Below are positions 2,751 to 53,977 of a stretch of DNA of 64,000 nucleotides, one piece after another. This DNA is from Nitrospinota bacterium (GTDB lineage Bacteria > Nitrospinota_A > UBA7883 > JADGGD01): the NCBI GenBank assembly GCA_942491805.1, contig CALOCG010000035.1, positions 96,408 to 160,407 of the forward strand, given 5' to 3'. Under the pieces are notes generated by a model, which was given only the letters and a program-made list of their open reading frames with translations, had not been told where the DNA came from and ran no database searches. Within the stretch, counting starts at the first letter, position 1, and each line of letters starts with the position of its first letter. The position numbers were made by a program, and so were the translations under genes.

Positions 2751-2840
2751 CAGGATGCGGTACCACCAGCCTCCGATCAATTAATGCGTTATGGTAGGCG
2801 GTGGGGAGGGACTCTGTCGACCGGAGTGTCCGATGGGGCG

Positions 2841-26111: not shown

Positions 26112-26121
26112 CGTCGGGCTA

Positions 26122-26705
26122 TCACTTCTTCGGTTCGGGCAAGACGTGGAAGGTCTCAGCCCATTTTTTGTCTTTCCAATTCCGTCCGGCGTGAACGCCT
26201 TCGGAACGGAAGCGGTAGGGGCTGTTGCGATGTCCGTGGCAACGGAGGCAGACGGTCTTGCCGTCGTACGGAACCACGTGCCCGGCCTGTTTTAATTTCC
26301 GGTCGAGATTGGCGAACCCGACTTTGTCGTGAATGAGAATCCACTTCTCCGCCGGACCGTGACACTCTTCGCACCCGATCCCCTCCCATTCGGCTTTGGG
26401 GGTGTCGAACCGATAGCCCCCTTGGTCGTAACCGGTGACGTGACACTCCATGCACGATTTGTCTTTGGTGTAGTCGATGGGGGTTTTAACCCAGCCTCTT
26501 TTTTCTCTTTGGGGCGGACCTCCGGCTTCAGCAGCTCGAAGACCTTCGCGTGCTTGCTCTTCTCCCACGAGGCGTATATCTCTTGGTGGCACTCTTGGCA
26601 GGTTCCGTTGCCGATAAACTTTCCTTTGGCGGCGACCGCTTCTGTCGGGACGAATATGAGGGGGACGAGAAGAACGAACCAGAGGAACCGGGCAAGAGGA
26701 GGCAT
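26122..26705 (-). CDS. Tetraheme cytochrome c554-family protein; 1-base deletion near 26479-26487
   Basis: Signal peptide, then CQECH in ORF 26292-26705, and CMECH, CEECH, CLRCH in the frame of ORF 26122-26592; HAKVFELLKP...IDYTKDKSC parallels the c554 HAKAMESLKP...KDYTQDKDC segment. Confidence 0.85.
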
Positions 26706-33489: not shown

Positions 33490-33582
33490 GGCGTCCTCCT
33501 TTGCCGCATCATACACCTTCCGCATCTTCAGCCCCGGTAGGCTACAATGTTGCTCGAGCCGATAAACCGCAAGGAGCCTGAC

Positions 33583-34860
33583 GTGACCTTTTCCCCTTAC
33601 GAAAAATCGACGCTGGCCAACGGCCTGCGCGTTCTGACCGTTCCGATGCCGGGCGTCCGCTCGGTGACGGTGATGGTGATGGCCGCCGTCGGCAGCCGTT
33701 ACGAGTCGCGCCGCGAAAACGGCATCGCCCATTTCATGGAACATATGTTCTTCAAGGGCGCCAAACGGTACCCCGACACCATGGCGGTCTCGTCGGCCAT
33801 CGACGGGGTGGGAGGGGTTTTTAACGCTTTCACCAGCGAAGAGAAGGTCGCCTATTTCGTCAAACTCTCGTCGGCCAAACGAAGGATCGCTTTCGACGTC
33901 CTCTCCGACATGCTCCTTAACTCGAAGTTCGACGACGACGAAATCGAACGGGAGAAGGGGGTGATCATCGAAGAGATTCGGATGTATCAGGACGACCCGA
34001 TGAGCAAAACCCAGATCGATTTCAAACGCCATTTCTACGGCGACCAGCCGTTGGGTTGGGATATCGCCGGGCCGGAGGAGAACATCCGCGCGGTGAAGCG
34101 GGACGATTTCCTTCATTTCCTCGACGAACATTACGCCGCCGACAACCTGATCCTCGTCGCGGCCGGCGACATCAGCCACGACGAGAATATGGCGTTGACC
34201 GAAGAGTTTTTCACCTTCACTCATCGCCGGGGGAAAAAGGCGGCGCTCCCTTTCGTCGCCCCTCCGGCGGGAGAACGGTCGATCTTGACCCGGCGCGATA
34301 TCGAGCAGGCCCACTTTATCATCGGTTTCCCGACACCGGGAGACGAACACCCGGATCAGCCGGCGTTAAAAATCTTTAACAACGCCTTCGGCGGCACCAT
34401 GAGCAGTCGGCTCTTCCATCAGGTGCGGGAACGACGCGGCTTGGCCTACTATGTCCGTTCCGGCAGGTCGGCCTATACCGACGCCGGGGCGATAAAGATC
34501 TCCGCCGGGGTGAATGTCAATAAGCTGGAAGAGGCGATCGCCTGCGTCATGGAGGAGGTCGTAAAAGCCTCCGCCGACGGCCTGACCGCCGACGAAGTGG
34601 CCAAGGCAAAAGAGAACATCAAGGGACGGCTCGACCTGTCGCTGGAAGATTCGATGTCGATGGCGTCTCTTATCTCCTCCCGCGAAGCGCTCCACGGCGA
34701 AGTGAAAACGCCGGAAGACTTGGTGGCCGAGATCGACGCGGTCACCGTGGAGCAGGTGGCCGACGTCGCCGCCCGTTACCTCGACCGGTCGAAAGTGAAA
34801 CTTGGCGTCCTCGGCCCCTTCGACGACGGCGCCCCGTTCGACGCCGCGTTGGGGGGATAG
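33583..34860 (+). CDS. M16B zinc peptidase (cytoplasmic)
   Basis: GIAHFMEHMFFKG, NAFTSEE, SSRLFHQVRERRGLAY; GTG start after aaggag. Confidence 0.92.
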   Translation: MTFSPYEKSTLANGLRVLTVPMPGVRSVTVMVMAAVGSRYESRRENGIAHFMEHMFFKGAKRYPDTMAVSSAIDGVGGVFNAFTSEEKVAYFVKLSSAKRRIAFDVLSDMLLNSKFDDDEIEREKGVIIEEIRMYQDDPMSKTQIDFKRHFYGDQPLGWDIAGPEENIRAVKRDDFLHFLDEHYAADNLILVAAGDISHDENMALTEEFFTFTHRRGKKAALPFVAPPAGERSILTRRDIEQAHFIIGFPTPGDEHPDQPALKIFNNAFGGTMSSRLFHQVRERRGLAYYVRSGRSAYTDAGAIKISAGVNVNKLEEAIACVMEEVVKASADGLTADEVAKAKENIKGRLDLSLEDSMSMASLISSREALHGEVKTPEDLVAEIDAVTVEQVADVAARYLDRSKVKLGVLGPFDDGAPFDAALGG

Positions 34861-39934: not shown

Positions 39935-41200
39935 CTACGCCGACTCTTTCGCCCGGACGATCTTCGCTCCCAGCGCCGACAGCTTCGCCTCCATCCGTTC
40001 GTATCCCCGGTCGAGGTGATAGACCCGGCTGATGACCGTCTCTCCCCGGGCCGCCAGCCCGGCCAAGACCAACGACGCCGACGCCCGCAGGTCGGAGGCC
40101 ATCACCGGGGCGCCGGAAAGATGGGAGACTCCCTTCACCGTGGCGGTGTCTCCCGAGACGGAGATGTTCGCCCCCATCCGTTGCAACTCGGCCACGTGCA
40201 TGAATCGGTTCTCGAAAATCTTTTCCCGCACCACGCTGGCGCCGTCGGCTAGGGTCATCAACGCCATGAACTGGGCCTGCATGTCGGTGGCGAAACCGGG
40301 AAAAGGCGCCGTGGTGATATCGACCGGCAGAATCTTCGGCCCGGCCACCACCCGGACCCAGTCGCCCCCTTCGGTAACGGTCGAGCCGCTCTTTTTCAGT
40401 TTGTCGGTCAGGGCGGCCACGAGGTCGGGTTCGATCCGCTCGACGGTGACGTCCCCGCCGGTGATGGCGGCGCCGACCATGAAGGTGCCTGCTTCGATCC
40501 GGTCGGGGACGATGGTGACGTCGGCCGGGTGGAGTTTCTCTACCCCTTTGACGGTGATGACCGGCGTCCCCGCGCCGGTGACGTCGGCCCCCATGGCGTT
40601 CATGAAATCGGCCAAGGCGGTCACTTCCGGCTCCCGCGCGGCGTTTTCGATGACGGTGGTCCCGTCGGCGGTGGCGGCGGCCATCATGATGTTCATGACG
40701 CCGGTGACGGTGACGAGGTCCATGACCACCCGCGCCCCGACCAGTCGTTTCGGCGCCCGGACTTCGACGTAGCCTCCGGCCAGTTCGATTTCGGCGCCTA
40801 AAGCTTCGATACCTTTGAGGTGCTGGTCGATGGGACGTTGGCCGATGGCGCAACCGCCGGGAAGGCTGACCCGGGCGTGCCCCTGTCGCGCCAGCAACGG
40901 ACCTAACGCCAAGACGGAAGCCCGCATGGTCCGCACCAGTTCGTAGGGGGCCTCGTCGCCGGTTAAGTTGGTGGTGTCGACGGCGTATCGGCCATGCCCT
41001 TCGTCGGACACGTCGGCGCCCATGGCGGCGAGAATGGCAACGATGGTGCGGATGTCACGCAGGTCGGGGACGTTGGCGAGCCGGAAGGTTCCGGGGGTCA
41101 GCAAGGTTGCGGCGAACAGCGGCAAGGCGGCGTTCTTCGCCCCGGACGCGGTCACCCGGCCATGCAGGGGGGCGCCCCCTTCGATCTTGATTAGGTCCAC
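39935..41200 (-). CDS. murA: UDP-N-acetylglucosamine 1-carboxyvinyltransferase
   Basis: SGAKNAALP, MRAS, LPGGCAIGQRP, PGFATDMQAQ, DLRASA. Confidence 0.97.
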   Translation of the reverse strand: MDLIKIEGGAPLHGRVTASGAKNAALPLFAATLLTPGTFRLANVPDLRDIRTIVAILAAMGADVSDEGHGRYAVDTTNLTGDEAPYELVRTMRASVLALGPLLARQGHARVSLPGGCAIGQRPIDQHLKGIEALGAEIELAGGYVEVRAPKRLVGARVVMDLVTVTGVMNIMMAAATADGTTVIENAAREPEVTALADFMNAMGADVTGAGTPVITVKGVEKLHPADVTIVPDRIEAGTFMVGAAITGGDVTVERIEPDLVAALTDKLKKSGSTVTEGGDWVRVVAGPKILPVDITTAPFPGFATDMQAQFMALMTLADGASVVREKIFENRFMHVAELQRMGANISVSGDTATVKGVSHLSGAPVMASDLRASASLVLAGLAARGETVISRVYHLDRGYERMEAKLSALGAKIVRAKESA

Positions 41201-41203
41201 ACG

Positions 41204-42058
41204 CTACTTTCTTTTCGTTTGAGCGACGGCGATCCGGTCGAGCCCGGCCAGATCGGGAATGACGGCGACCGACGCGAAGGCCCTGGCGCTCTCGATAATA
41301 CCCCGAACCGCCTCCCCGTGCTCGTCGCCGATCTCAATCATCAGCCATCCCCCCGGCGTCAGATGATCGGGAGCGTCGTCGACGAGGCGACGAACGACGT
41401 TAAGCCCGTCGGCTCCGGCGAAAAGAGCCGACGGCGGCTCGTGTCGGCGCACCCCCTCGGCGACGGTCGTGGCGCCGTCGGCGACGTAGGGGGGGTTCGA
41501 TACGATCAGGTCGAAACTTCCGCCCAACGGCGCCAGCAGGTCTCCTTCAAGAAAGGTCACCCGGTCGGCGACGCCATGTCGTTGGCCGTTCCCGTTCGCC
41601 ACGGCGAGAGCCTCCGCCGAAATATCGACGGCGACGATTCCCCACGCAAGGCGTTCGCACGCAAAGGTGACGGCGATGCAGCCGCTCCCGGTTCCGATAT
41701 CGGCGACCCGGGCGGGGCGATCGTCGAACCGGGTCAAGGCGGCCTCTACCAGGCCTTCGGTCTCTGGCCGGGGGATTAACGTCGCCGGGGTAACGGTGAA
41801 GGAGCGTCCGTAGAATTCCTGTTCGCCGACGATATAGGCGACCGGCTCGTGGCCGAGCCGTCGGACGAGACAGCTTTCGTAACGTTCGAGCGTGTCGTCG
41901 GGAACCGTATCGGGGCCGCGCATGACGAGCCGGGTCCGGTCGATATCGGCGGCATGGGCGAGCAGAATGTCGGCGTCGAGGCGGGGGGTGTCGAACCCGG
42001 CTTCTTTCAATCGGCGGGCGCCGTCGTGAGCGGCGCGGGCGTAGTCGATCCGGGTCAC
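41204..42058 (-). CDS. prmC: Release factor glutamine methyltransferase
   Basis: [23 protein letters not shown]. Confidence 0.96.
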
Positions 42059-43134
42059 CCGGCGGCCACCCCTTGCTCCTTTAACGCCTTCTCCTGCGCG
42101 GCGTAGTTCAAGGCGTCGATCATTTCGTCGAGCGCCCCGTTAATGAACGCTTCAAGCTTGTAGAGGGTCAGGTTGATCCGATGGTCGCTGACCCGCCCTT
42201 GCGGAAAGTTATAGGTGCGGATACGTTCCGACCGATCACCGGAGCCGACTTGGCTCTTCCGGGCGGCGCCCCGTTTGTCGGCCTCTTCTCGCTCTCTGAG
42301 GTCTTGCAACCGGGAGAGCAACACCCGCATCCCCTTGGCCTTGTTCTTGTGCTGGCTTTTTTCGTCCTGCATGGAGACGACAAGCCCGGTCGGGATGTGG
42401 GTGATCCGCACGGCCGAGTCGGTGGTGTTGACCGACTGACCGCCGGGGCCGGACGACCGATAGATATCGATTTTCAGGTCGCTGGGGTCGAGATCGACTT
42501 CGACCTCTTCGGCTTCCGGGAGGATGGCGACGGTGACGGCGGAGGTGTGGATACGCCCTTGCGTCTCGGTGTCGGGAACTCGCTGGACCCGATGAACCCC
42601 CGATTCGTATTTCAACCGGGAGTAGGCGCCTTTGCCGGTGATGGAGCAGATGATCTCTTTAAAACCGCCGACGCCGGTTTCGGAGCAGGAAAGAATTTCC
42701 ACTTTCCATTTTTGCTCTTCGGCGTAGCGGCCGTACATCCGAAACAGATCGGCGGCGAAAAGGCCGGCCTCGTCACCGCCGGTTCCGGCGCGGATTTCCA
42801 AGATGACGTTTTTGTCGTCGTTGGGGTCTTTGGGGAGAAGCATCAGCCGCAACGACCGTTCGAGGGCTTCGACCTTCGGGGTCAGCTCTTCGACCTCCTC
42901 TTCGGCCATCTCGACCATCTCCGGGTCGGCGTCGTCGCGAACCACCGCCTTGGCTCCGGCCAGGTCGGCGTCGAGCTTTTTCAGGCGGGCGTAGTCGGCG
43001 GCGACATCGCGCAACTCGGCGTGTTCGCGGGCCAGTTTTTCGAACCGGACCCTGTCGGAGACGACGGAGGGGTCCCCCATCTTCTCGTTGAGCTGTTCGT
43101 ACCTTTTCGCTAAGGCTTCGAGCGTTTGACGCAT
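42055..43134 (-). CDS. prfA: Peptide chain release factor 1
   Basis: [35 protein letters not shown]. Confidence 0.97.
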
Positions 43135-43266
43135 AGATCGGGCCTCCTCTGTGTAAACCCTTCAACCAGACCAGAGCGAGCCGACGTTTGCGACGCGCAA
43201 AACGACGGCGGCTCTTACTGGAGACGTGAGGAGAATAGCCGACATAAGCCGATCAGGCCTACGCCG

Positions 43267-43482
43267 CTACTTCTTGATAGCCTGGGTCTTCGCGTAGCGG
43301 CGGTTGAACTTCTCGATCCGTCCGGCGGTGTCGATCAGTTTCTGCTTGCCGGTATAGAAGGGGTGGCAGGCCGAGCAGATGTCGACCGAGACGCGAGCTT
43401 CGACACCGCGCGTTTTCACTTCGTTTCCGCAGGCGCAGTGGATGACGCTCTCCACATACTCGGGATGTATATCTTTCTTCAT
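43267..43482 (-). CDS. rpmE: 50S ribosomal protein L31 (Zn-binding type)
   Basis: [28 protein letters not shown]. Confidence 0.96.
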
Positions 43483-43624
43483 GATCTCTCCTGGTCCTTC
43501 GCTCATAAAAGGTCCGTTGCTGGGTCGAAACGAGGGATGATAGCAGATCGGGGGGATATTTCAACATCTTTTAGCCTCCCGATTCTCGTATCATAAAACA
43601 AAATCGCTCTCCCGGAGACCCCAC

Positions 43625-44545: not shown

Positions 44546-44795
44546 GGGGCTCCTATCCGGCTAACGCCCGAACGACGCCAGAAGCCGGAAGGCTTGCAAG
44601 CGCTCCGACCCGGAAATTATTCCATCTCCCCGTGGCTTCGGATTTTTCAGCCTCGGCTTCGATCCTGAGCGTTTCCGCATGGCGCCTTCACGTTTCGCCG
44701 CCACCGACTTCAACGTGCCGTCGGCTTCCCGGCGCTCGATAAAAAATTGGGGGCCGTCCTCGCCGTAGCCGAGAGGAGAAGGACAGGCGTAAGCC

Positions 44796-44835
44796 TGCTA
44801 GAATGGGCGTGTGTACCGAACAGCATTCAAGGAGG
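44796..44835 (+). promoter_or_regulatory. Extended -10 (TG-c-TAGAAT) and Shine-Dalgarno (AAGGAGG) of the selenoprotein gene
   Basis: tgctagaat at 44796-44804; aaggagg at 44829-44835. Confidence 0.65.
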
Positions 44836-44839
44836 GGTC

Positions 44840-45058
44840 ATGAAGGTATCGATTACCTACTGCGTGCAGTGAAACTACAAACCACGCGCCGCCAGTCTGG
44901 CGGCTAAGATTGAAAAAAAGTATGACGTGCCTGTCGAACTGGTCGGCGGGGGAGGGGGGATCTTCGACGTGATCGTCGATGGCGACCTGATCTTTTCCAA
45001 ACATGCCGCAGGGCGTTTCCCGGAAGAGGCCGAAGTGCTCGACCGGCTCGAAAACTGA
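44840..45058 (+). CDS. Rdx-family (SelW/SelT/SelH-like) selenoprotein, Sec at codon 11
   Basis: MKVSITYCVQ-U(TGA 44870-44872)-NYKPRAASLAAKIEKKYDVPVELVGGGGGIFDVIVDGDLIFSKHAAGRFPEEAEVLDRLEN*; CxxU, G-FDV-VDG-LIFSK and GRFP are Rdx hallmarks. Confidence 0.93.
44873..44904 (+). promoter_or_regulatory. Bacterial SECIS-like hairpin
   Basis: Stem GCCGCCA(44888-44894)/TGGCGGC(44898-44904), apical loop GTC beginning with G, 22 nt after the UGA. Confidence 0.75.
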
Positions 45059-45105
45059 AACTGACGCCCCTCCCCCATGGCGGGGACGGGAGAAGGGATG
45101 AACTC

Positions 45106-47256
45106 ATGTCGTCCGCCCAATCGACCACTCCCGGCGCCGCCGCCGACCGGGGACTCGCCCCCCTCTTGCGTCCCGACGGCGTCGCCGTCGTCGGCGCCTC
45201 GTCGGTAGAAGGCAAAGTAGGCTACGCCCTCGTCGACAACCTGATCCGGGCCGGATACCCCAAAGAGAAGATCTATCCGATCAACCCGAAAGGGGGGGAG
45301 ATTCTCGGGCTCCCCAGCTACGCTACCGTCGCCGCCGTCGGGAAGCCGATCGATCTGGCGGTCATCGCCGTCCCGACCGCCCGGGTCCTCGACGCCGTCA
45401 AAGAGGCGACCGGGGCCGGAGTCAAAGGGGTGGTGGTCATTACCGCCGGGTTCCGGGAAGTAGGACACGAAGGGGAGACGATGGAAAACGCCGTTGTCGA
45501 AGTCTGCCGGTCGCACGGAGTTCGGATGCTGGGGCCGAACTGCTTGGGGGTCATCAACACCCACCACAACCTGAACGCCTCCTTCGCCAAACGGCATCCC
45601 CGTCAAGGGGGGATCACGGTCATTTCCCAGTCGGGAGCGTTGCTCACCGCCATTCTCGACTACGCCGCCATGCGGCATCTGGGCATCTCCAAGATGGTCT
45701 CCATCGGCAACAAAGCCGACCTGAACGAAATCGATTTCTTGAAGACCTTCGCCGACGATCCCGAGACCGACGTCATCGTCGGCTATCTGGAGAGCATCGG
45801 CGACGGCGAGGCGTTCATTAAAGCCGCCGAAGAGGCCTCCACCAAAAAGCCGGTGGTTCTGATGAAAGTCGGCTCCACCGCCGCCGGACAGAAAGCGGCC
45901 AGTTCCCACACCGGAAGTCTGGCCGGGGCCGATGTCGCCTACGGCGCCGCCTTCTCCCGCTCGGGCGTCATTCGGGCCGACTCGTTCGAAGCCCTGTTCG
46001 ACAACGCCATGGCGCTGGCGTTACAACCGTTGCCCAAAGGGCCGAAAGTCGCCGTCATCACCAACGCCGGCGGCCCCGGCATCATGTGCGCCGACGCCAT
46101 CGAAAAAGAGGGGATGACCGTCGCCGAATTGTCGGGGGCCGGCGCCGCCGCTTTGGCCGCCACCCTGCCTGCCGCCGCTTCGGTCGGCAACCCGATCGAC
46201 GTGTTAGGCGACGCCGATCCAGAGCGATACGCCACCGCTCTCACCGCCGCTTTGCAGGACGACGCCGTCGACGCGGTGATCGTGATCCTGACTCCGCAAG
46301 CGATGACCCGCCCGCGCGAGACCGCCCTCGCTTTGGCCGACGCCGCCACCGGCGAAAAACCGGTGTTGGCCGTCTTCATGGGGGGGGAAGATGTCCTCCC
46401 GTCGCGGGCCGAACTGGTGGAACGAAAATTCCCCGCCTACACCGCCCCCGAACGGGCCGTGGCGGCGTTGAAAGCGATGTGGGGCCACGCCGCATGGAAG
46501 ATACGTCCCCCCCGGATCGTCACCCGCTATCCGGTCAACCGACGTCGCGCCGAGCGGATCATCGCCCGTCGCATTCGCGCCAACCGGTTGGAGGTTGGGG
46601 AGGCGCGGTCGAAAGAAATCCTGGAGGCCTACGGTTTCACCATCCCGCAAGGGGAGCTGGCCACCACCGCCGAGGAGGCGGTCGAAGTGGCCGAACGGGT
46701 CGGTTATCCGGTCGTGATGAAAATCGCCTCGCCCGACATTTTGCACAAGTCCGACTTCGGCGGCGTTCGGCTCGGTCTCGCCAACGCCGACATGGTGCTC
46801 GACGCCTACGACCTGATGATGCTTCGCATTCAGCGACGGGCGCCCGACGCTCGGATGGACGGCGTGTATGTGGAAAAGATGGCCGACCGGGGACGGGAGG
46901 TGATCGTCGGCATGACCCGCGATCCCCAATTCGGCCCCATGCTCATGTTCGGTCTCGGCGGCATTTTCGTCGAGGTGATGAAAGACGTCACCTTCCACTT
47001 GGCCCCCATCACCGCCGACGAAGCGATGCAGATGTTACGAGCCACCCGGTCGTACGGTCTGTTGAAAGGCGCCCGCGGCGAAAGCGGGGTCGATTTGGGC
47101 GCCGTGGCCGAAGGGTTGCAGCGAATCAGCCAGTTGGTCACCGACTTTCCTGAAATCGTCGAACTCGACATCAACCCCTTCATCGTGGGGAAAGTGGGGA
47201 GCGACCCTGTCGTCGCCGACGCCCGCATGACCCTTTCTCCGCGCAAGGAGCGTTAA
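45106..47256 (+). CDS. ADP-forming acyl/acetyl-CoA synthetase, fused alpha+beta (CoA-binding + ATP-grasp)
   Basis: AVVGASS, GPNCLG, SQSGAL, SIGNKAD, SSHTGSLAG (phospho-His), NAGGPG, NPIDVLGDA, HKSDFGGV, LDINP. Confidence 0.92.
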   Translation: MSSAQSTTPGAAADRGLAPLLRPDGVAVVGASSVEGKVGYALVDNLIRAGYPKEKIYPINPKGGEILGLPSYATVAAVGKPIDLAVIAVPTARVLDAVKEATGAGVKGVVVITAGFREVGHEGETMENAVVEVCRSHGVRMLGPNCLGVINTHHNLNASFAKRHPRQGGITVISQSGALLTAILDYAAMRHLGISKMVSIGNKADLNEIDFLKTFADDPETDVIVGYLESIGDGEAFIKAAEEASTKKPVVLMKVGSTAAGQKAASSHTGSLAGADVAYGAAFSRSGVIRADSFEALFDNAMALALQPLPKGPKVAVITNAGGPGIMCADAIEKEGMTVAELSGAGAAALAATLPAAASVGNPIDVLGDADPERYATALTAALQDDAVDAVIVILTPQAMTRPRETALALADAATGEKPVLAVFMGGEDVLPSRAELVERKFPAYTAPERAVAALKAMWGHAAWKIRPPRIVTRYPVNRRRAERIIARRIRANRLEVGEARSKEILEAYGFTIPQGELATTAEEAVEVAERVGYPVVMKIASPDILHKSDFGGVRLGLANADMVLDAYDLMMLRIQRRAPDARMDGVYVEKMADRGREVIVGMTRDPQFGPMLMFGLGGIFVEVMKDVTFHLAPITADEAMQMLRATRSYGLLKGARGESGVDLGAVAEGLQRISQLVTDFPEIVELDINPFIVGKVGSDPVVADARMTLSPRKER

Positions 47257-47259
47257 ACC

Positions 47260-49149
47260 ATGGCTCACGACAAAGCGGCGGTCGAGCTCGATACGAACTG
47301 GCGGACGACCTACGCCGACATGCTCTCGACTCCGTCACAAGCGGCCACCCGCATTAACTCCGGCGACCGGGTTTTCATCGGCACCGGTTGCGCCCAACCG
47401 TCGGCTCTGACCACCGCGCTCACTGATCGGGCGCCCAAGCTCAATGACGTCGAGATCGTCCATCTCCTCACTTTCGGCGACGCCCCCTACGCCACGCCGG
47501 AACTGGCCGATAAGTTCCGGGTCAACTCTTTCTTCGTCGCCGAGAACGTCAGGAGCGTCATCCAGCAAGGGTACGGTAGCTATACCCCGATTTTTCTCTC
47601 CGACATCCCCCGTCTTTTCACCTCCGGTCGGTTGCCGCTCGACGTCGCTCTGATACAGGTCTCTCTCCCCGACCATCGGGGACGGGTCAGCCTCGGGGTC
47701 TCGGTCGACATCGTCAAAGCCGCCACCCGGACCGCCAGCCTGGTGGTGGCGCAGGTGAACGCCAATATGCCTTACACCATGGGGAACAGCCTGATGTCGG
47801 TCCACGATCTCGATATCCTCGTCCCGTGCGACGAGCCGTTGGTGGAGCGGGTGCAGATGGAGCCGAACCCGACATCCGACGCCATCGGCCGGCGGATCGC
47901 TTCGCTTATCGGCCACGGCTCGACGTTGGAGCTCGGCATCGGGCGGATACCCCAGTCGATCTTGCGTCACCTGACCCACAAGCGGGATCTCGGCATCCAT
48001 TCGGAGATGATCACCGACGAGATCATCCCTCTTATCGAATCGGGGGTCGTCACCGGCGCAAGGAAACGGCACGACCGGGGGAAGGTGGTCGTATCTTTCG
48101 CCGTCGGAACCAAGAAGTTGTACGACTATATCGACCGGAACCCGGCCTTTTCGTTCCAGGCCACCGAGTATGTCAACGACCCGGCGGTCATCGCCCGGCA
48201 ACGCCGGATGGTGGCGATCAACATGGCCCTTGAGGTTGATCTGACCGGGCAGGTCTGCGCCGATTCGTTGGGAGATAAATTCTTCTCCGGCATCGGCGGG
48301 CAGGTCGATTTCAACCGTGGCGCGGCGGCCGCGCCCGGTGGGAAGGCGATCATCGCGCTCCCGGCCACCGCGTTGGGGGGGAGCGTCTCTCGCATCGTCG
48401 CCCGACTGACGCCGGGGGCCGGGGTGGTGACCACCCGTGGGGACGTCCATTACGTCGTCACCGAATACGGGGTCGCCTACCTCCACGGTAAGAGCGTTTC
48501 GGAACGGGCGTTGGCTCTTATCTCCATCGCCCACCCCGACTATCGGGCCGAGCTTATCGAAGCGGCCATCGAAGCCAAACTGATCCGCTCGGAGAAACGG
48601 GCCATCGAAGGGAAGGTGGTGCTGGCGCCGGCGGAGCTGAATACGTCGATGGTCTTGCGGGACGGAACGCAGATTCATTTCCGGTCGATCCAACCGACCG
48701 ACGAACCGAATATCCGCGACCTGATTCATCATCTGTCGCAGGAGACGATCTACTACCGGTTCATGAGCCACGTCACCCGGTTCGCCTACGAACAGATTCA
48801 AAACTTCGTCTACATCGACAACCGGAAAGAGGTGGCGGTGGTCGGCTATGTGGAGGAGGCTCACGGCGAATCGCTTATCGCGGTGGGGCGCTATTATCTC
48901 GACGAAGCGACGAACCGTGCGGAGGTCGCTTTCGTGGTACGGGACGAGTGGCAGAACAAGGGAATCGGTTCGTTCCTCTTGAACTATCTGGTGACTATCG
49001 CCCGACGGAACGGAATCAAAGGATTCACCGCCGAGGTGTTGCGCGAGAACAAACCGATGCAACGGGTCTTCCATAAGAAGAGCGATCTGCGCGTGCAAAG
49101 CCATCTGACCGAGGATGTCTATAGTTTCGAGCTCGACTTCCAAGAATAG
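47260..49149 (+). CDS. Acetyl-CoA hydrolase/CoA-transferase fused to a C-terminal GNAT acetyltransferase
   Basis: LELGIGRIP, GIHSEM, SGIGGQVDF, VVTEYGVAYLHGK; then FRSIQPTD, YRFM, AEVAFVVRDEWQNKGIGSFLL. Confidence 0.9.
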   Translation: MAHDKAAVELDTNWRTTYADMLSTPSQAATRINSGDRVFIGTGCAQPSALTTALTDRAPKLNDVEIVHLLTFGDAPYATPELADKFRVNSFFVAENVRSVIQQGYGSYTPIFLSDIPRLFTSGRLPLDVALIQVSLPDHRGRVSLGVSVDIVKAATRTASLVVAQVNANMPYTMGNSLMSVHDLDILVPCDEPLVERVQMEPNPTSDAIGRRIASLIGHGSTLELGIGRIPQSILRHLTHKRDLGIHSEMITDEIIPLIESGVVTGARKRHDRGKVVVSFAVGTKKLYDYIDRNPAFSFQATEYVNDPAVIARQRRMVAINMALEVDLTGQVCADSLGDKFFSGIGGQVDFNRGAAAAPGGKAIIALPATALGGSVSRIVARLTPGAGVVTTRGDVHYVVTEYGVAYLHGKSVSERALALISIAHPDYRAELIEAAIEAKLIRSEKRAIEGKVVLAPAELNTSMVLRDGTQIHFRSIQPTDEPNIRDLIHHLSQETIYYRFMSHVTRFAYEQIQNFVYIDNRKEVAVVGYVEEAHGESLIAVGRYYLDEATNRAEVAFVVRDEWQNKGIGSFLLNYLVTIARRNGIKGFTAEVLRENKPMQRVFHKKSDLRVQSHLTEDVYSFELDFQE

Positions 49150-49332: not shown

Positions 49333-52300
49333 CTACGACGGTCTGTTGAACGATGGCTGTTCTTTGAGCAGTTCTTCGAACCGTTCCGCCGGGACCGGCG
49401 GGGAGAAGAGGAACCCTTGCATCTGGTCGCACCCTTTCTCCTTGAGAAACTCCAACTGCTCGTAGGTTTCCACCCCTTCGGCCACCACCGACAATCCCAG
49501 CGAATGGGCCAGCGAGATGATCGCTTGGGCGATGACGGCGTCGTCCTGATCGCCGGGGATATCCCGCACGAACGACCGGTCGATCTTGAGCGTGTCGATG
49601 GGAAACCGTTTGAGGTAGGCCAACGACGAATAGCCGGTGCCGAAGTCATCGATGGCAATGCCGATACCCGACGCCGAGAGGCGGCGCAACGTTTCGATGG
49701 CGGCGTCGACGTCCCGCATGACGGTGCTCTCGGTGATTTCCATTTCGAGGTGGGCGGGGGCGACACCGCTGTCGGCCAGGGCGTCGGCGATCGATTCGAA
49801 AAGATTCTGCTCGGCGAACTGGAGGGCCGACAGGTTCACCGACACCACCAGATCGGTATGCCCCGCGTCGATCCAGCGGCGGGTCTGGGCCAAGGCTTCT
49901 TTTAAGGCGTAGATACCGATGGGGACGATCAGCCCGCTCTCTTCGGCCAGCGGGATGAACGTTCCGGGCGACACCAACCCGTGGGACGGGTGGCGCCAGC
50001 GGATGAGCGCCTCCATGCCCAAAACGGCGCCCGTGGAAAGCTCGAGCTTCGGTTGATAGTAGACGACGAACTCGTCCCGTTCGAGCCCCTTCCGCATATC
50101 CCGTTCCATGGTCAACGCGTCAAAACCGCTCCCCATGGTGGAGGTGTAGGTCTGATAGCCGTTCCCCCCCCGCTCTTTGGCTTGGCGGACGGCGAGGTCG
50201 GCGGTGCGGACCAGACTGTCGGCGTCGGCGCCGCTGGTCGGGTATTGCGACAGACCGACGCTGGCGGTGACGAATAGCTCTTCGTCGCCGACGACGAAGG
50301 GGGGGGCGAAGGTGGCGATCACCCTGCTGGCGAATCGACTGACGTCGCCCCCTTCCATATATTCGAGGATGAAGGTGAACTCGTCGCTCCCCCATCGGGC
50401 CAGCGTGTCTCCCTCCCCCAACAGGCCGGAGAGCCGAACGCCGACCTCCTGCAACAGGAGGTCTCCCACCAGATGTCCCAGTCCTTCGTTGATCTTCTTG
50501 AACCGGTCGATGGCGACGAAGACCACCGCCATTTTCCCGTGGGTTCGATGGGCCCACGCCAGCGATTGGTTGAGCCGGTCAAGGAAGAGGGGCCGGTTGG
50601 GAAGCCCGGTCAGGGCGTCGTGGTTGGCCTGATACCGAAGTTCCTCTTCACTTTTCTTCAGTTGCGACAGGTCGTGAAAGACGGAGATGTACTGCTTCGT
50701 CTTTCCGGCGTCGTCGCGAACGGCGGTGATGGTCGTCCATTGGGGATAGGCCTTGCCGTCTTTGCGACGGTTCCAAACCTCCCCTTCCCATTTCCCCTCT
50801 TCGATGAGAGCCCGCCACATTTCCTTATAGAAGGGGGCGTCGTGTCGGTCGGAGCGGAGAACGCGCGGGGTGCCGCCGAGGAGTTCCTCGGCCCGATAGC
50901 CGGTGATGTCGGTAACCGCCCGGTTGACGCTGGTGATAATCGACCGTTCGTCGGTGACCAGCACCCCTTCTGACGCATGGTCGAAAATGGTCGAGGCCAG
51001 CGCCAGTTGATCTTCAGCTTGTCGTCGCATCACTTCACGGCGGGCCGCTTCGATGATGTTCGCGCAAGTGCCGAGCGCCGGTTGCAGGAAGGTCACGTCG
51101 TCGGGCCGGTAGCCCATGGGGCGGTTGGCCAGTCCCAACACCCCGACGATCCGCGATCCGGCGAAGAGGGGGACGCCGAGGAAATTGTCGATGGGGGGAT
51201 GCCCCGACGGAAGCCCCTTCGCTTTCGGATCGTTCTTCGGATCGTTGGAGATGATCGGCTGACCGGTGGAGAGGAGCTCTCCGATCAACGAATCGGTTTT
51301 GCGAAAGACGATCTCTCTTCCCTCGTACGCTTTGGCGAAGGGGGCGAAGCGTTTTTCGGGGCTGGCGTCGGAAAAGGCTTTGACCTTGGCCACGAGCCCT
51401 CCCCCCTCTTCGACCACTTCGGCGACGAATCCGTGGAGGCTGTCGGTCAGTTCGAGCGCGTCGTCCAGAAAAGCGCCCAAGGTTTTGGCCTCCCCCTTGT
51501 TGGCGATATAGGCCTGCTGGGCCCGGCGGATGATGTCGAGCAGCCGGTTGGTCCGGGTCAGACTCTCCTCCGCCTCCCGCCGGAAGGTGATGTCGCGGCT
51601 GATCCCTCGGAAGCCGACGAACCGACCCTCCTCGTCTTCGAGAAGGAGACCGGAACATTCGAAGAGCGACGAAGCGCCGTTTTTGGCCACCTGCCATTGC
51701 ATCATGCCGGAGAAGGGGACGGGGGAGAGGAAGAGCTTTTGCGCCGCCTCCATCTGGGCGTCCCGGTGGGCGGGGGGGAAAAGATGGCCGAACGGCTTTC
51801 CGACGATAGCCGACGGGGGGTAGCCCAAAAGGTTTTCGACGTTCGGACTGGCGAAGGTATAGACGCCCCCCTCGTTCACTTCCCAGATCCAATCGCCCGC
51901 CTGATCGACCACTTCGCGGAATCGTTGTTCGGCAAGGGCCAGATCCTCTTGGGCGCGGCGTTGGCGGTTGGCTTGTCGATGAAGGGTGATCACCAGCAGG
52001 AGAAAGGTGGCGCCGCCGAAAAGAAGAAAGCCGTTAAAGAGGGAACGTTGGTGGCCGATCTCCCGTTCCATCATGAGACGGGCCTCCTCGGAGAGGGCGT
52101 CCAGATCGGCCATGATGCCGTTAAAGAGGAGATCGAACTCCCGGTCGTCGGGCTGCTGGTCCCTTGGCTTATCGCGGGCCTCCCAACGGAGGCGTCCCAA
52201 TGTCACGATCTGGTCGAGCCGACCCCGAAGCTCCTCCATGGCTGCGATCCGCTTACGTTCCGCCCGCTCCGCTATCGGGCCGGCGCCGGAGAGCGATGGG

Positions 52301-52578
52301 GGCGGCATCGTCTTAAGCAACTGTTCGCGAGCCTGATCGAACGAGCGCCACACCTGCTCCGAGGTATAGGTAGATTCTCCCGTCAGCGCTTCTTCGAGGG
52401 CCAGATGGGCTTTGGTCATGTCGGCTTGGATACGAACGAAAGCGTCGCGGGTCGGGAGGGTTCCCGCGAGCGTCGATTCCCACATCCGCTGGGTCGAGAC
52501 GAGGAGGGCCAACAAAGCGCCACCGACGACCAAGGCGATCAAGGCGATCGGTTCGAGCCCAAAGCGGGAGCGGTACAT
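49333..52578 (-). CDS. Membrane PAS-GAF-PAS-GGDEF-EAL c-di-GMP enzyme
   Basis: Two TMs; DWIWEV PAS; GAF GVPLFAGSRIVGVLGLAN; WEGEVWNRRKDG PAS; HDALTGLPNR, RWGSDEF; EAL, EITES, DDFGTGYSSL, EGVET; start at ATG 52578. Confidence 0.93.
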   Translation of the reverse strand: MYRSRFGLEPIALIALVVGGALLALLVSTQRMWESTLAGTLPTRDAFVRIQADMTKAHLALEEALTGESTYTSEQVWRSFDQAREQLLKTMPPPSLSGAGPIAERAERKRIAAMEELRGRLDQIVTLGRLRWEARDKPRDQQPDDREFDLLFNGIMADLDALSEEARLMMEREIGHQRSLFNGFLLFGGATFLLLVITLHRQANRQRRAQEDLALAEQRFREVVDQAGDWIWEVNEGGVYTFASPNVENLLGYPPSAIVGKPFGHLFPPAHRDAQMEAAQKLFLSPVPFSGMMQWQVAKNGASSLFECSGLLLEDEEGRFVGFRGISRDITFRREAEESLTRTNRLLDIIRRAQQAYIANKGEAKTLGAFLDDALELTDSLHGFVAEVVEEGGGLVAKVKAFSDASPEKRFAPFAKAYEGREIVFRKTDSLIGELLSTGQPIISNDPKNDPKAKGLPSGHPPIDNFLGVPLFAGSRIVGVLGLANRPMGYRPDDVTFLQPALGTCANIIEAARREVMRRQAEDQLALASTIFDHASEGVLVTDERSIITSVNRAVTDITGYRAEELLGGTPRVLRSDRHDAPFYKEMWRALIEEGKWEGEVWNRRKDGKAYPQWTTITAVRDDAGKTKQYISVFHDLSQLKKSEEELRYQANHDALTGLPNRPLFLDRLNQSLAWAHRTHGKMAVVFVAIDRFKKINEGLGHLVGDLLLQEVGVRLSGLLGEGDTLARWGSDEFTFILEYMEGGDVSRFASRVIATFAPPFVVGDEELFVTASVGLSQYPTSGADADSLVRTADLAVRQAKERGGNGYQTYTSTMGSGFDALTMERDMRKGLERDEFVVYYQPKLELSTGAVLGMEALIRWRHPSHGLVSPGTFIPLAEESGLIVPIGIYALKEALAQTRRWIDAGHTDLVVSVNLSALQFAEQNLFESIADALADSGVAPAHLEMEITESTVMRDVDAAIETLRRLSASGIGIAIDDFGTGYSSLAYLKRFPIDTLKIDRSFVRDIPGDQDDAVIAQAIISLAHSLGLSVVAEGVETYEQLEFLKEKGCDQMQGFLFSPPVPAERFEELLKEQPSFNRPS

Positions 52579-52732
52579 ATGGGGATAACTCTTTGCAGCT
52601 CTTTCGCCCAAAAGAAGTTGTTCATAACGATGATCAAAACCGACGACGTCCACCACGACGCTTACGAACGACCATTTTGCGACGAGTATGGCATCATTGC
52701 AAACAGAACCTTTACCGTCGGAGAGGAACGTC

Positions 52733-53977
52733 GTGGAGAATATACAAAGTCTCGTCGGTATCGTCACGCTGATCGGTGTCGCCTGGGGGATCAGCGAGAA
52801 CCGTCGCGCCGTAAAACCGAAGGGGGTCGTGGCCGGCGTGGCGCTTCAGCTGGTCATCGGGTTGGCTCTTTTAAAACTCCCGCTGATGGGGGAGCTTTTC
52901 TTGGCCTTAAACGGCATAGTACTCGCCGTCGACGCCGCCGCCACCGCCGGAACCTCGTTCGTCTTCGGCTACCTCGGCGGCGGGGATCTCCCTTTCGACG
53001 AGCCCTTCCCCGGCGCCGCGTTTGTGCTGGCGTTCAAAGGACTGCCGATCATTCTTGTCATGTCGGCCCTGTCGGCGTTGCTCTATCATTGGCGCATTTT
53101 GCCTTGGGTCATCAAAGGGATCGCGCGCGCTTTGACGGCGACCCTCGGCCTCGGCGGCGCCACCGGCTTGGCGACGGCGGCCAACGTCTTCGTCGGCATG
53201 GTCGAGGCGCCCCTGTTCATTCGCCCCTACCTTATGAGCCTCACCCGATCGGAGCTGTTCGTTCTGATGACCGGCGGGATGGCGACCATCGCCGGAACGA
53301 TGATGGTCCTATACGCCACCGTATTGGGACCGGTGATCCCCGACGCGATGGGGCATATCCTGACCGCGTCGCTTATCTCCGCCCCGGCTGCGGTGACGGT
53401 GGCGCTGATTATGATCCCCGAGACAGGAACCGTCACCGCCGGAACATCGTTCCCCCCGTCGGAAGCCGACTCCGCCATGGACGCCGTCACCCGGGGGACG
53501 AGCCAAGGGGTGAACCTGCTGATCCAGATCGTGGCGACGCTGGTGGTGTTGGTGGCGCTGGTCAGCCTCCTTAACCAGGGACTCGGCTTGGCAGGCGAGG
53601 CGGCCGGGGCTCCGTTGACCCTCGAACGACTGCTGGGGTGGCTCTTGGCGCCGGTGGCGTGGCTCCTCGGCGTCCCCTGGGGGGAAGCGATGGCCGCCGG
53701 ATCGCTGATGGGGGTGAAGGTGGCGTTGAACGAATTCCTGGCCTATTTGCAGATGGCCCACCTCCCCGCCGGGAGTCTCTCTTCTCGAACCGAGCTGATC
53801 ATGACCTACGCCCTCTGCGGCTTCGCCAACTTCGGGAGCCTCGGCATCATGATCGGCGGCATGGGCGCCATGGCCCCCGAACGGCGAGAAGAAATCGTCG
53901 GATTGGGATTGCGCTCCATCGTTTCGGGGAACGTGGCCAGTTTCATGTCGGGAGCGGTCATCGGCGTTTTAACCTGA
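52733..53977 (+). CDS. Concentrative nucleoside transporter (CNT/NupC family)
   Basis: GTSFVFG, ANVFVGMVEAP, GMATIAG, KVALNEFLAY, CGFANFGSLGI. Confidence 0.92.
   Translation: MENIQSLVGIVTLIGVAWGISENRRAVKPKGVVAGVALQLVIGLALLKLPLMGELFLALNGIVLAVDAAATAGTSFVFGYLGGGDLPFDEPFPGAAFVLAFKGLPIILVMSALSALLYHWRILPWVIKGIARALTATLGLGGATGLATAANVFVGMVEAPLFIRPYLMSLTRSELFVLMTGGMATIAGTMMVLYATVLGPVIPDAMGHILTASLISAPAAVTVALIMIPETGTVTAGTSFPPSEADSAMDAVTRGTSQGVNLLIQIVATLVVLVALVSLLNQGLGLAGEAAGAPLTLERLLGWLLAPVAWLLGVPWGEAMAAGSLMGVKVALNEFLAYLQMAHLPAGSLSSRTELIMTYALCGFANFGSLGIMIGGMGAMAPERREEIVGLGLRSIVSGNVASFMSGAVIGVLT

What the first reader, a model, noticed from the sequence alone, without database searches (positions are those of the whole stretch)
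44840..45058. Hidden Rdx/SelW-type selenoprotein missed by ORF calling
Seen: strong SD, ATG 44840, CVQ-TGA at codon 11, then an open Rdx-like body to TGA 45058, with a 7-bp G-loop hairpin 22 nt after the UGA. Known: Rdx-family proteins use a CxxU/CxxC redox motif, and bacterial SECIS elements lie just 3' of the UGA. Inference: the organism decodes Sec, and automatic annotation will miss or truncate this gene.
Basis: partly seen in the sequence, partly recalled or inferred. Interest (0 to 1): 0.7.

Follow-up and report, generated by a model that had tools for sequence, protein, structure and literature searches.

The report
SelW-like selenoprotein gene with SECIS hairpin
This is a real but ordinary gene for a small redox protein of the well-known bacterial SelW-like (Rdx) family, whose in-frame UGA codon almost certainly encodes selenocysteine with the help of an RNA hairpin just downstream, which is why gene finders tend to miss it.

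Summary
It comprises the SD AAGGAGG, ATG 44840, Cys codon 44861, in-frame TGA 44870, an open frame to TGA 45056-45058, and a 7-bp hairpin (44888-44904) whose GUC loop starts 22 nt after the UGA.

With U read as C, the 72-aa product matches Pfam Rdx (E 2e-20) and clears the curated cut-offs of NCBIfam NF041051 and TIGR02174.

All 80 closest genomic homologues, from more than 15 phyla, carry TGA at the same codon and the same hairpin at the same offset. The two wobble-position base pairs covary. Verified Cys-codon homologues encoding the same AASLA peptide break those pairs. Against the closest homologue, the part after the UGA has dN/dS 0.19, so it is translated.

TGA is otherwise a normal stop in this window. 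The window holds no selA, selB, selD or tRNA-Sec, and the rest of the genome could not be reached, so Sec decoding by this organism is inferred, not shown.

Bacterial SelW-like selenoproteins have been known since 2005, so this is a new member of a known kind.

The parts
44829..44835 (+). Shine-Dalgarno sequence AAGGAGG, 4 nt upstream of the start codon
   Evidence: Read directly from the sequence.
44840..45058 (+). SelW-like / Rdx-family selenoprotein gene: 72 codons plus stop, with Sec at codon 11
   Evidence: Translation. Pfam PF10262 73.2 bits. NCBIfam NF041051 93.2 bits against a cut-off of 88, and TIGR02174 61.6 against 34.2. Solved-structure relatives 2fa8, 2ljk, 3dex, 2oka, 2obk, 2npb. 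dN/dS 0.175 against L001.
44861..44863 (+). Cys codon (TGC), the first residue of the CxxU redox motif
   Evidence: TGC or TGT at this codon in all 80 homologous loci.
44870..44872 (+). In-frame UGA, the predicted selenocysteine codon (U11)
   Evidence: TGA at the aligned codon in 80 of 80 closest loci. It aligns with Cys in CxxC homologues whose TGC/TGT codons were verified in DNA and in solved structures.
44888..44904 (+). Bacterial SECIS-type hairpin GCCGCCA-GUC-UGGCGGC inside the coding region (it encodes AASLA). The loop is 44895-44897, and 22 nt separate the UGA from the loop.
   Evidence: Fold of -13.4 kcal/mol. Same position in the homologues. 94.9% of cells paired against 83.6% in shuffles, and 45 double changes against 10.6, 0 of 500 shuffles. 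Wobble pair at hairpin positions 6/12 is CG 65, GC 16, none unpaired. Pairs are broken in five Cys-form genes.
45056..45064 (+). True stop: tandem in-frame TGA AAC TGA
   Evidence: Read directly from the sequence. The Pfam profile ends at residue 71 of 72.
45106..47256 (+). Downstream neighbour, probably co-transcribed (47-nt gap): ADP-forming acyl/acetyl-CoA synthetase. It is context and not part of the Sec element.
   Evidence: Pfam CoA_binding, Succ_CoA_lig and ATP-grasp_5. The adjacency is shared with the closest homologue L001 but not with the other loci.

Best explanation
Window 44840-45058 (+) is a functional gene for a 72-residue SelW-like (Rdx / SelT-SelW-SelH family) selenoprotein.

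Proposed mechanism:
1. Translation starts at ATG 44840, behind a strong Shine-Dalgarno sequence.
2. At UGA codon 11, the hairpin 44888-44904 within the mRNA acts as a bacterial SECIS element. Its 7-bp G+C-rich stem and GU-containing apical loop lie 22 nt 3' of the UGA.
3. The hairpin recruits SelB-GTP-Sec-tRNA(Sec), so selenocysteine is inserted instead of termination.
4. Translation continues to the tandem stop at 45056.

The product is expected to adopt a small thioredoxin-like fold with an N-terminal C8-x-x-U11 selenenylsulfide redox centre. It most likely acts as a thiol-dependent (glutathione- or thioredoxin-linked) oxidoreductase.

Shown: the reading frame, family membership, conservation of the UGA, structural conservation and covariation of the hairpin, and purifying selection on the post-UGA part.

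Inferred: SelB-dependent Sec insertion in this organism, and the redox function. No physiological substrate has been established for any bacterial member of this family (own knowledge; PMC1088965 calls the function unclear).
For: - Frame and motif.
- Family: Pfam Rdx E 2e-20 over the full profile. NCBIfam NF041051 93.2 bits (cut-off 88) and TIGR02174 61.6 bits (cut-off 34.2). PDB sequence relatives include Atu0228 (2fa8), SelW (2npb) and MIEN1 (2ljk), with their CxxC aligned to CVQ-U.
- UGA conservation: TGA at the same codon in 80 of 80 closest loci, from Nitrospinota, Myxococcota, Acidobacteriota, Planctomycetota, Chloroflexota, Binatota-type, Gemmatimonadota, Spirochaetota, SAR324 and others.
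- Cys homologues exist, with TGC/TGT verified in DNA.
- Hairpin: same offset in the homologues, with a GUC or GUU loop in 78 of 81. 94.9% of cells are paired against 83.6% in shuffles and 23-52% in slid controls. Both-side changes number 45 against 10.6 (0 of 500 shuffles). Both variable pairs sit at codon third positions.
- Cys-form control: five Cys-form genes, four of them encoding the same AASLA peptide, pair only 4-6 of 7 positions, with G-G or C-C at exactly those wobble pairs. Four of the five lack the GU loop.
- AASLA occurs in 65 of 81 Sec forms against 4 of 19 Cys forms.
- Selection: against the closest homologue L001, dS is 0.72 and dN/dS 0.19 for the part after the UGA. There are no synonymous differences inside the hairpin codons.
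- TGA is an ordinary stop here. It ends RF1, LepA, MreB, PurC and CoaX, whose Pfam domains run to their C-termini.
- Literature: SelW-like is an established bacterial selenoprotein family with a CXXU motif and a bSECIS (PMC1088965, PMC1794560).
Against: - No component of the Sec machinery was seen. The only tRNA in the window is tRNA-Glu.
- tblastn with E. coli SelA, SelB and SelD finds only the GTPase domain of LepA.
- 64 kb is a small part of a genome, and the remainder could not be retrieved.
- The hairpin alone is not significantly more stable than shuffled sequence (z -1.08).
- No Rfam family matches it.
- No second selenoprotein gene was found in the window.
- There is no experimental evidence of selenium incorporation.
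Confidence: 0.9

Rival explanations
1. The gene is a pseudogene or evolutionary relic. Either a Cys codon (TGC/TGT) mutated to TGA, or the organism lost Sec decoding. Translation then stops after 10 residues and the rest is decaying.
For: TGC/TGT to TGA is a single-base change. No Sec machinery is visible in the window. At least one other gene in the window, the M16 peptidase at 1228-2780, looks frameshifted, so damaged genes or assembly errors do occur here.
Against: TGA sits at this codon in 80 of 80 closest homologues. The post-UGA part is intact to the end of the Pfam profile and is under purifying selection (dN/dS 0.19 at dS 0.72). The hairpin is perfect, with 7 of 7 pairs, and is identical to that of L001 despite saturating synonymous divergence elsewhere.
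Confidence: 0.04
2. The UGA is read through as a standard amino acid (Trp, Cys or Gly), either by a reassigned code or by near-cognate suppression. The product would then be CxxW or CxxC rather than CxxU.
For: Many public protein entries of this family read CxxW. Low-level UGA suppression is known in bacteria (own knowledge).
Against: TGA ends many conserved genes in this window exactly where their domains end: RF1, LepA, MreB, PurC and CoaX. The code is therefore standard, and the CxxW entries are best read as gene-caller artefacts. Trp at a position that is Cys in every non-UGA homologue makes no catalytic sense. The covarying hairpin has no role under this model.
Confidence: 0.04
3. Only a shorter protein is made, from an internal start such as GTG 44927 (43 aa), and the upstream MKVSITYCVQ is untranslated.
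For: the ORF listing reports a 43-aa ORF at 44927-45058. Annotators have deposited N-truncated versions of homologues (P0001).
Against: The N-terminal segment, with M-K-[VI]-x-I-x-Y-C-x-x directly before the TGA, is conserved across phyla. It supplies profile positions 1-10 of Pfam Rdx, including the catalytic Cys. The strong SD precedes ATG 44840, not GTG 44927. A 43-aa fragment would lack strand beta-1 and the redox motif.
Confidence: 0.02

Closest known systems
Bacterial SelW-like selenoproteins (Zhang, Fomenko and Gladyshev 2005, Sargasso Sea selenoproteome, PMC1088965; Zhang et al. 2006, PMC1794560). Modelled by NCBIfam NF041051 'SelT/SelW/SelH family (seleno)protein', TIGR02174 CXXU_selWTH, and Pfam PF10262 Rdx.
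   Same: About 70-80 aa long, with an N-terminal CxxU motif and UGA a few codons into the gene. A bSECIS hairpin with a small G-containing apical loop lies just downstream within the coding region. Cys-containing homologues exist. All three curated HMMs score above their cut-offs. The family was the most abundant selenoprotein family in the Sargasso Sea data, with 48 genes.
   Different: Nothing essential differs. This copy comes from an uncultured lineage whose RF1 is closest to proteins labelled Nitrospinae/Nitrospinota (64-80% identity). Its nearest deposited homologue is 81% identical (L001). It sits directly upstream of an ADP-forming acyl-CoA synthetase, a context shared only with L001.
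Mammalian selenoprotein W (PDB 2npb) and the eukaryotic Rdx group: SelT, SelH, SelV, Rdx12, and MIEN1/C17orf37 (PDB 2ljk)
   Same: Same Pfam family, and the CxxU/CxxC motif is at the equivalent position. A thioredoxin-like fold and redox role are expected (own knowledge; Dikiy et al. 2007).
   Different: Eukaryotic genes use a 3'-UTR SECIS with a kink-turn and SBP2/eEFSec. Here the element is a simple hairpin inside the ORF, 15 nt after the UGA, of the SelB type. Sequence similarity to SelW itself is weak (E 1e-3).
Cys-type bacterial Rdx proteins of solved structure: Atu0228 (2fa8), 2oka, 2obk, 2ojl, 2p0g, SAV_2001 (3dex)
   Same: Homologous over residues 2-70, with CxxC aligned to CVQU.
   Different: They have Cys in place of Sec and are about 30 residues longer. 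As with the Cys-form genes examined here, no SECIS hairpin is expected; in those five genes only 4-6 of 7 positions pair.
E. coli fdhF SECIS, the paradigm bacterial SECIS bound by SelB
   Same: A hairpin within the ORF shortly after the UGA. Its apical loop carries G-U, the SelB contact (own knowledge, recalled and not tested here).
   Different: The stem here begins 15 nt after the UGA, against 11 nt for the minimal fdhF element. The loop is 3 nt, or 5 nt if the A-U closing pair opens. No bulged U is evident. No Rfam model matched.

Membership tests
Rdx / SelT-SelW-SelH family (Pfam PF10262; NCBIfam TIGR02174, NF041051) | Scores above the curated family cut-offs across the whole profile | tested here: met
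   PF10262 73.2 bits against a cut-off of 22.6, profile 1-73 of 74. TIGR02174 61.6 against 34.2, and NF041051 93.2 against 88. U was replaced by C for scoring.
Rdx / SelT-SelW-SelH family (Pfam PF10262; NCBIfam TIGR02174, NF041051) | CxxC or CxxU redox motif near the N-terminus, directly after the first beta-strand | tested here: met
   C8-V-Q-U11. It aligns with the CxxC of 2fa8 and 2ljk and with CxxU or CxxC in all homologues.
Rdx / SelT-SelW-SelH family (Pfam PF10262; NCBIfam TIGR02174, NF041051) | Thioredoxin-like fold | not tested
   No structure was predicted, because the read-through sequence could not be handed to the structure tool (one search shows the input rule). The fold is supported only indirectly, by sequence homology to eight solved Rdx structures.
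Bacterial selenoprotein gene (SelB/SECIS-dependent UGA decoding) | In-frame UGA aligned with Cys in homologues and conserved as UGA in orthologues | tested here: met
   80 of 80 loci have TGA. Cys forms have verified TGC/TGT codons.
Bacterial selenoprotein gene (SelB/SECIS-dependent UGA decoding) | Stem-loop immediately 3' of the UGA, with a small apical loop carrying G in its first two positions. The Zhang and Gladyshev bSECIS model is recalled as UGA-to-loop distance 16-37 nt. | tested here: met
   7-bp stem, GUC loop, 22 nt from the UGA, -13.4 kcal/mol. It is conserved with covariation and degraded in Cys forms. bSECISearch itself was not available. [quoted passage not shown]
Bacterial selenoprotein gene (SelB/SECIS-dependent UGA decoding) | The sequence downstream of the UGA evolves as protein-coding | tested here: met
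   dN/dS 0.19 at dS 0.72 against L001. The post-UGA part alone scores 48.2 bits on Pfam Rdx.
Bacterial selenoprotein gene (SelB/SECIS-dependent UGA decoding) | The genome encodes selA, selB, selD and tRNA-Sec (selC) | not testable with these tools
   None of these is in the 64-kb window. The source contig, which is 167,831 bp, and the rest of the genome could not be fetched.
Bacterial selenoprotein gene (SelB/SECIS-dependent UGA decoding) | Selenium is actually incorporated (75Se labelling or mass spectrometry) | not testable with these tools
   This needs an experiment.

The most novel reading that the evidence does not exclude
In this Nitrospinota-related lineage the SelW-like selenoprotein may be co-transcribed with, and functionally coupled to, the downstream acyl-CoA module. 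That module is an ADP-forming acyl/acetyl-CoA synthetase followed by an acetyl-CoA hydrolase/transferase-GNAT fusion. Such coupling could be, for example, redox control of CoA-thioester or protein-acetylation chemistry. It would give a first functional handle on bacterial SelW-like proteins, whose substrate is unknown. The only support is a 47-nt gap and conservation of the adjacency in one relative. The other 79 loci show no shared context.
Probability: 0.08. Interest if true: 0.4.

Novelty: new member of a known kind. Interest (0 to 1): 0.22.

Why it matters
The practical value is for annotation. The gene adds one selenoprotein to this genome and implies that the organism has the Sec-decoding trait. 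Other UGA-interrupted genes in the genome should therefore be re-examined. NCBI-labelled Nitrospinota MAGs are reported among the most selenoprotein-rich bacteria, with 48-54 genes (PMC13326102), though it is not shown that this organism belongs to that group.

The comparative data also give a clean textbook case of an RNA element shaping a protein sequence. The AASLA segment and its codon third positions are held by the SECIS hairpin in Sec forms and relax in Cys forms.

It does not open a new biological question, because the family, the motif and the decoding mechanism have been described for two decades.

Tried and rejected
- Rfam, at gathering thresholds on the whole window and at permissive thresholds on 44780-45100, gave no SECIS match. 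The only hit was a chance Antizyme_FSE match in the spacer.
The Sec machinery therefore could not be examined.
- tblastn with E. coli SelA, SelB and SelD against the window and all 80 loci gave one weak SelB hit. That hit is LepA/EF4.
- Two screens for a second selenoprotein gene were run: in-frame TGA with coding signal on both sides, and then TGA plus a bSECIS-like hairpin. They found only this gene, plus antisense artefacts inside other genes.
- Conserved gene neighbourhood across the 80 loci: none beyond clade-specific synteny.
- A sigma-70 promoter and terminator scan around the gene found nothing useful.
- The hairpin in the 47-nt spacer after the stop is not significant (z -1.76).
The post-UGA 61 aa were used instead.
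- Structure prediction was not run. The read-through sequence is not an exact window translation, and family membership was already settled by three curated HMMs.
- The reassigned-code, pseudogene and internal-start readings were rejected; see the rival explanations.

Full report
**1. The observation**

Window 44840-45058 on the + strand reads MKVSITYCVQ*NYKPRAASLAAKIEKKYDVPVELVGGGGGIFDVIVDGDLIFSKHAAGRFPEEAEVLDRLEN*.

- AAGGAGG lies at 44829-44835, 4 nt before the ATG.
- The Cys codon is 44861-44863.
- The in-frame TGA is 44870-44872, codon 11.
- The terminal TGA is 45056-45058, with a second in-frame TGA two codons later.

RNA folding of 44870-44930 gives a single hairpin, GCCGCCA-GUC-UGGCGGC, at 44888-44904 with -13.4 kcal/mol. 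Exactly 22 nt lie between the UGA and the loop. Taken alone the hairpin is not unusual for this G+C-rich sequence: its z-score is -1.08, and 26 of 200 shuffles fold as well.

**2. What the protein is**

With the UGA read as Cys, the 72-aa product matches Pfam Rdx (PF10262) at 73.2 bits, E 2e-20, over profile positions 1-73 of 74. The 61 residues after the UGA alone score 48.2 bits.

NCBIfam places it above the curated cut-offs of TIGR02174 CXXU_selWTH (61.6 against 34.2). It also clears the equivalog-level model NF041051, 'SelT/SelW/SelH family (seleno)protein' (93.2 against 88).

Sequence search of the PDB finds eight Rdx-family structures. These include Atu0228 (2fa8), MIEN1 (2ljk) and mouse SelW (2npb). 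Their CxxC aligns to C8-V-Q-U11.

**3. Comparative evidence for Sec decoding**

A scan of one genome per species (GTDB) returned 231 relatives, of which the best 80 were kept. They come from MAGs and genomes labelled Nitrospinota, Spirochaetota, Myxococcota/Polyangia, Acidobacteriota, Planctomycetota, Desulfobacterota, Eisenbacteria, Gammaproteobacteria, Dehalococcoidia, Binataceae, Gemmatimonadota, KSB1, Actinomycetota, Lentisphaeria, Fibrobacterota and SAR324.

In all 80 the codon aligned to U11 is TGA, and the codon three positions upstream is TGC or TGT.

In nearly all of them RNAfold places the same hairpin at the same offset. The 17-nt element follows the pattern GCN GCN AGU YUN GCN GC, and the loop is GUC or GUU in 78 of 81.

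The two pairs formed by codon third positions are free to vary without changing the peptide, and they covary:

| Hairpin positions | Pair types across the 81 sequences |
|---|---|
| 6/12 | C-G 65, G-C 16, none unpaired |
| 3/15 | C-G 40, G-C 13, U-A 7, G-U 9, U-G 8, four mismatches |

On the gap-free 78-sequence alignment A1:

| Measure | Observed | Shuffled control |
|---|---|---|
| Cells forming a standard pair | 94.9% | 83.6% (0 of 500 shuffles reach it) |
| Cells changed on both sides | 45 | 10.6 (0 of 500) |
| Cells paired when partners are slid 1-3 columns | - | 23-52% |

**4. A control with Cys forms**

An exhaustive HMMER search with the post-UGA segment found 470 representatives. They fall into three groups:

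- N-truncated proteins, many starting at the Leu codon inside the hairpin.
- Full-length entries reading CxxW, which are best explained as TGA translated as Trp by gene callers.
- Genuine CxxC proteins.

DNA was retrieved for five CxxC proteins. All have TGC or TGT at the position. Only 4-6 of the 7 hairpin positions can pair.

In the four that encode the same AASLA peptide, the failures are G-G or C-C at the wobble pairs, the same positions that covary in the Sec forms. Three of those four use Ser AGC, giving a GCC loop, instead of AGU. The peptide alone therefore does not force the hairpin. In Sec forms the synonymous sites are tuned to build it.

Consistent with this, AASLA occurs in 65 of 81 Sec forms but 4 of 19 Cys forms (Fisher p 2e-6). 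The caveat is that the Sec set was chosen for similarity to the query.

**5. Is the part after the UGA translated in this lineage?**

The closest homologue is L001, from a Nitrospinota MAG. It is 81% identical in protein and 76% in DNA over 493 nt, including the start of the same downstream gene.

Nei-Gojobori estimates for the codons after the UGA give dS 0.72, dN 0.137 and dN/dS 0.19. Synonymous differences are spread along the gene, but none falls in the hairpin codons 16-21. That pattern indicates a translated, selected protein with an additional RNA constraint, not a decaying pseudogene.

**6. Is UGA otherwise a stop here?**

Yes. About half of the crude ORF calls end in TGA (27 of 57). 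These include RF1, LepA, MreB, PurC and CoaX, whose Pfam domains run to within a few residues of that stop. A reassigned genetic code is therefore excluded.

**7. What could not be shown**

The window contains only tRNA-Glu. tblastn with E. coli SelA, SelB and SelD, fetched, finds nothing except the GTPase domain of a protein that Pfam identifies as LepA/EF4. Pfam annotation of the remaining ORFs shows no selenium-related gene.

The window's RF1 is listed in the protein collection on a 167,831-bp contig without source information.

Sec decoding by this organism is therefore an inference from the gene itself.

By RF1 best hits the organism is a deep relative of bacteria labelled Nitrospinae/Nitrospinota. 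Identity is 80% to an unnamed JGI protein, about 69% to 'Nitrospinae bacterium' MAGs, and 64% to Nitrospina gracilis. A 2026 database paper reports that NCBI-labelled Nitrospinota MAGs of GTDB phylum UBA8248 are among the most selenoprotein-rich bacteria, with 48-54 genes (PMC13326102). Whether this window belongs to that group was not established.

**8. Context**

- Upstream genes: MurA, PrmC, RF1 and L31 on the minus strand, then a CAP-domain protein on the plus strand.
- Downstream, after 47 nt: an ADP-forming acyl/acetyl-CoA synthetase, then an acetyl-CoA hydrolase/transferase-GNAT fusion, and on the minus strand a PAS-GAF-GGDEF-EAL protein.
- The SelW-like/synthetase adjacency is shared with L001. 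Clustering of neighbours over all 81 loci shows no family-wide conserved context.
- No promoter-like or terminator-like site of note was found.
- No second selenoprotein candidate exists in the window.

**9. Mechanism proposed**

Ribosomes initiate at 44840. When UGA-11 reaches the A site, the hairpin 15 nt downstream is still outside the mRNA channel. Its GU loop and G+C-rich upper stem bind the C-terminal domain of SelB, carrying GTP and Sec-tRNA(Sec). Sec is delivered in competition with RF2, and the ribosome then melts the hairpin and translates it as R-A-A-S-L-A.

The product, by homology, is a thioredoxin-like mini-protein whose C8/U11 pair cycles between the selenol/thiol form and the selenenylsulfide form.

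The SelB step and the redox role follow from established knowledge of bacterial Sec insertion and of the Rdx family. They were not tested here. The physiological substrate is unknown for the whole family: PMC1088965 calls the function unclear and notes glutathione interaction for SelW.

**10. Comparison with what is known, and novelty**

Bacterial SelW-like selenoproteins were described in 2005. They were the most abundant selenoprotein family in the Sargasso Sea metagenome, with 48 genes, a CXXU motif and a bSECIS with a conserved loop G (PMC1088965). They were then catalogued in Geobacter, Desulfotalea, Alkaliphilus, Desulfotomaculum and Symbiobacterium (PMC1794560). Curated HMMs exist for the family. 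This gene meets every testable membership criterion, so it is a new member of a known kind.

**11. The annotation claim**

The claim holds.

- NCBI deposited the L001 homologue as a 55-aa 'Rdx family protein' starting inside the hairpin (P0001).
- Truncated and CxxW entries abound.
- Ten plausible forms of this window's product are absent from a 15-billion-protein collection that holds its neighbour RF1. The forms tested were full length with C, W, G or X at residue 11, four internal starts with M or the native residue, and the 41-aa upstream ORF.
- Annotation is not always wrong: the SAR324 homologue is stored full length (P0002 against L060).

**12. Verdict**

The novelty is low. The finding is useful for correcting annotation and as a flag that the genome uses Sec, but it would not surprise a specialist.

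Noticed in passing
window 1228-2780 (minus strand): An M16 zinc-peptidase gene (HLLEH motif; partial Pfam PF00675 hit) is split over three reading frames: 1866-2780, 1519-2172 and 1228-1518. There appear to be 1-nt frameshifts near 2005 (AEVERF | LDAWYVPNNAV) and near 1519. It is either a pseudogene or the result of assembly indels. An intact M16 paralogue lies at 33541-34860 (+).
   Followed up: partly
window 45106-49149 (+): Directly downstream of the selenoprotein gene lies an ADP-forming acyl/acetyl-CoA synthetase (716 aa). Four nt later comes an acetyl-CoA hydrolase/transferase fused to a GNAT acetyltransferase domain (629 aa), which is an unusual fusion. The adjacency of the selenoprotein gene and the synthetase is shared with L001 only.
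   Followed up: partly
L024, L050, L052, L063, L065, L068, L069 and similar loci (Binataceae-type), at the UGA of their SelW-like genes: These homologues have a second small hairpin, GAGGCU-ACA-AGCCUC, that includes the last two bases of the UGA codon itself, in front of the conserved SECIS hairpin. It is absent from the window's gene.
   Followed up: no
proteins P0005, P0006, P0008, P0016, P0018, P0021, P0043 and others: Many public protein entries of this family read CxxW at the Sec position, presumably because TGA was translated as Trp by gene callers using code 4 or 25. Others start at CTG or TTG inside the SECIS hairpin. This is systematic mis-annotation of the family in metagenome protein sets.
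   Followed up: partly
window 45056-45064 and 45065-45105: The gene ends in a tandem in-frame stop, TGA AAC TGA, in the same UGA-AAC-U context as the Sec codon. The 47-nt spacer to the next gene can form a C/G-rich hairpin without a U tract (-22.9 kcal/mol for 45050-45115, z -1.76, not significant).
   Followed up: partly
window 49333-52767 (minus strand): A large PAS-PAS-GAF-PAS-GGDEF-EAL signalling protein (1144 aa) converges on the acyl-CoA genes.
   Followed up: no
L090 (JGI metagenome contig, gene 301-543): This Cys-form (TGC) homologue still has 6 of 7 hairpin pairs and a GUU loop. It may be a recent Sec-to-Cys conversion.
   Followed up: no
window 24502-26592 and 39935-43506, compared with L086 (GCA_029261405.1): The blocks CoaX-BirA-cytochrome c554 and L31-RF1-PrmC-MurA are syntenic with a relative whose RF1 is 72% identical. 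That relative has a CZB-domain gene next to L31, where the window has the CAP-domain protein and the selenoprotein gene.
   Followed up: no
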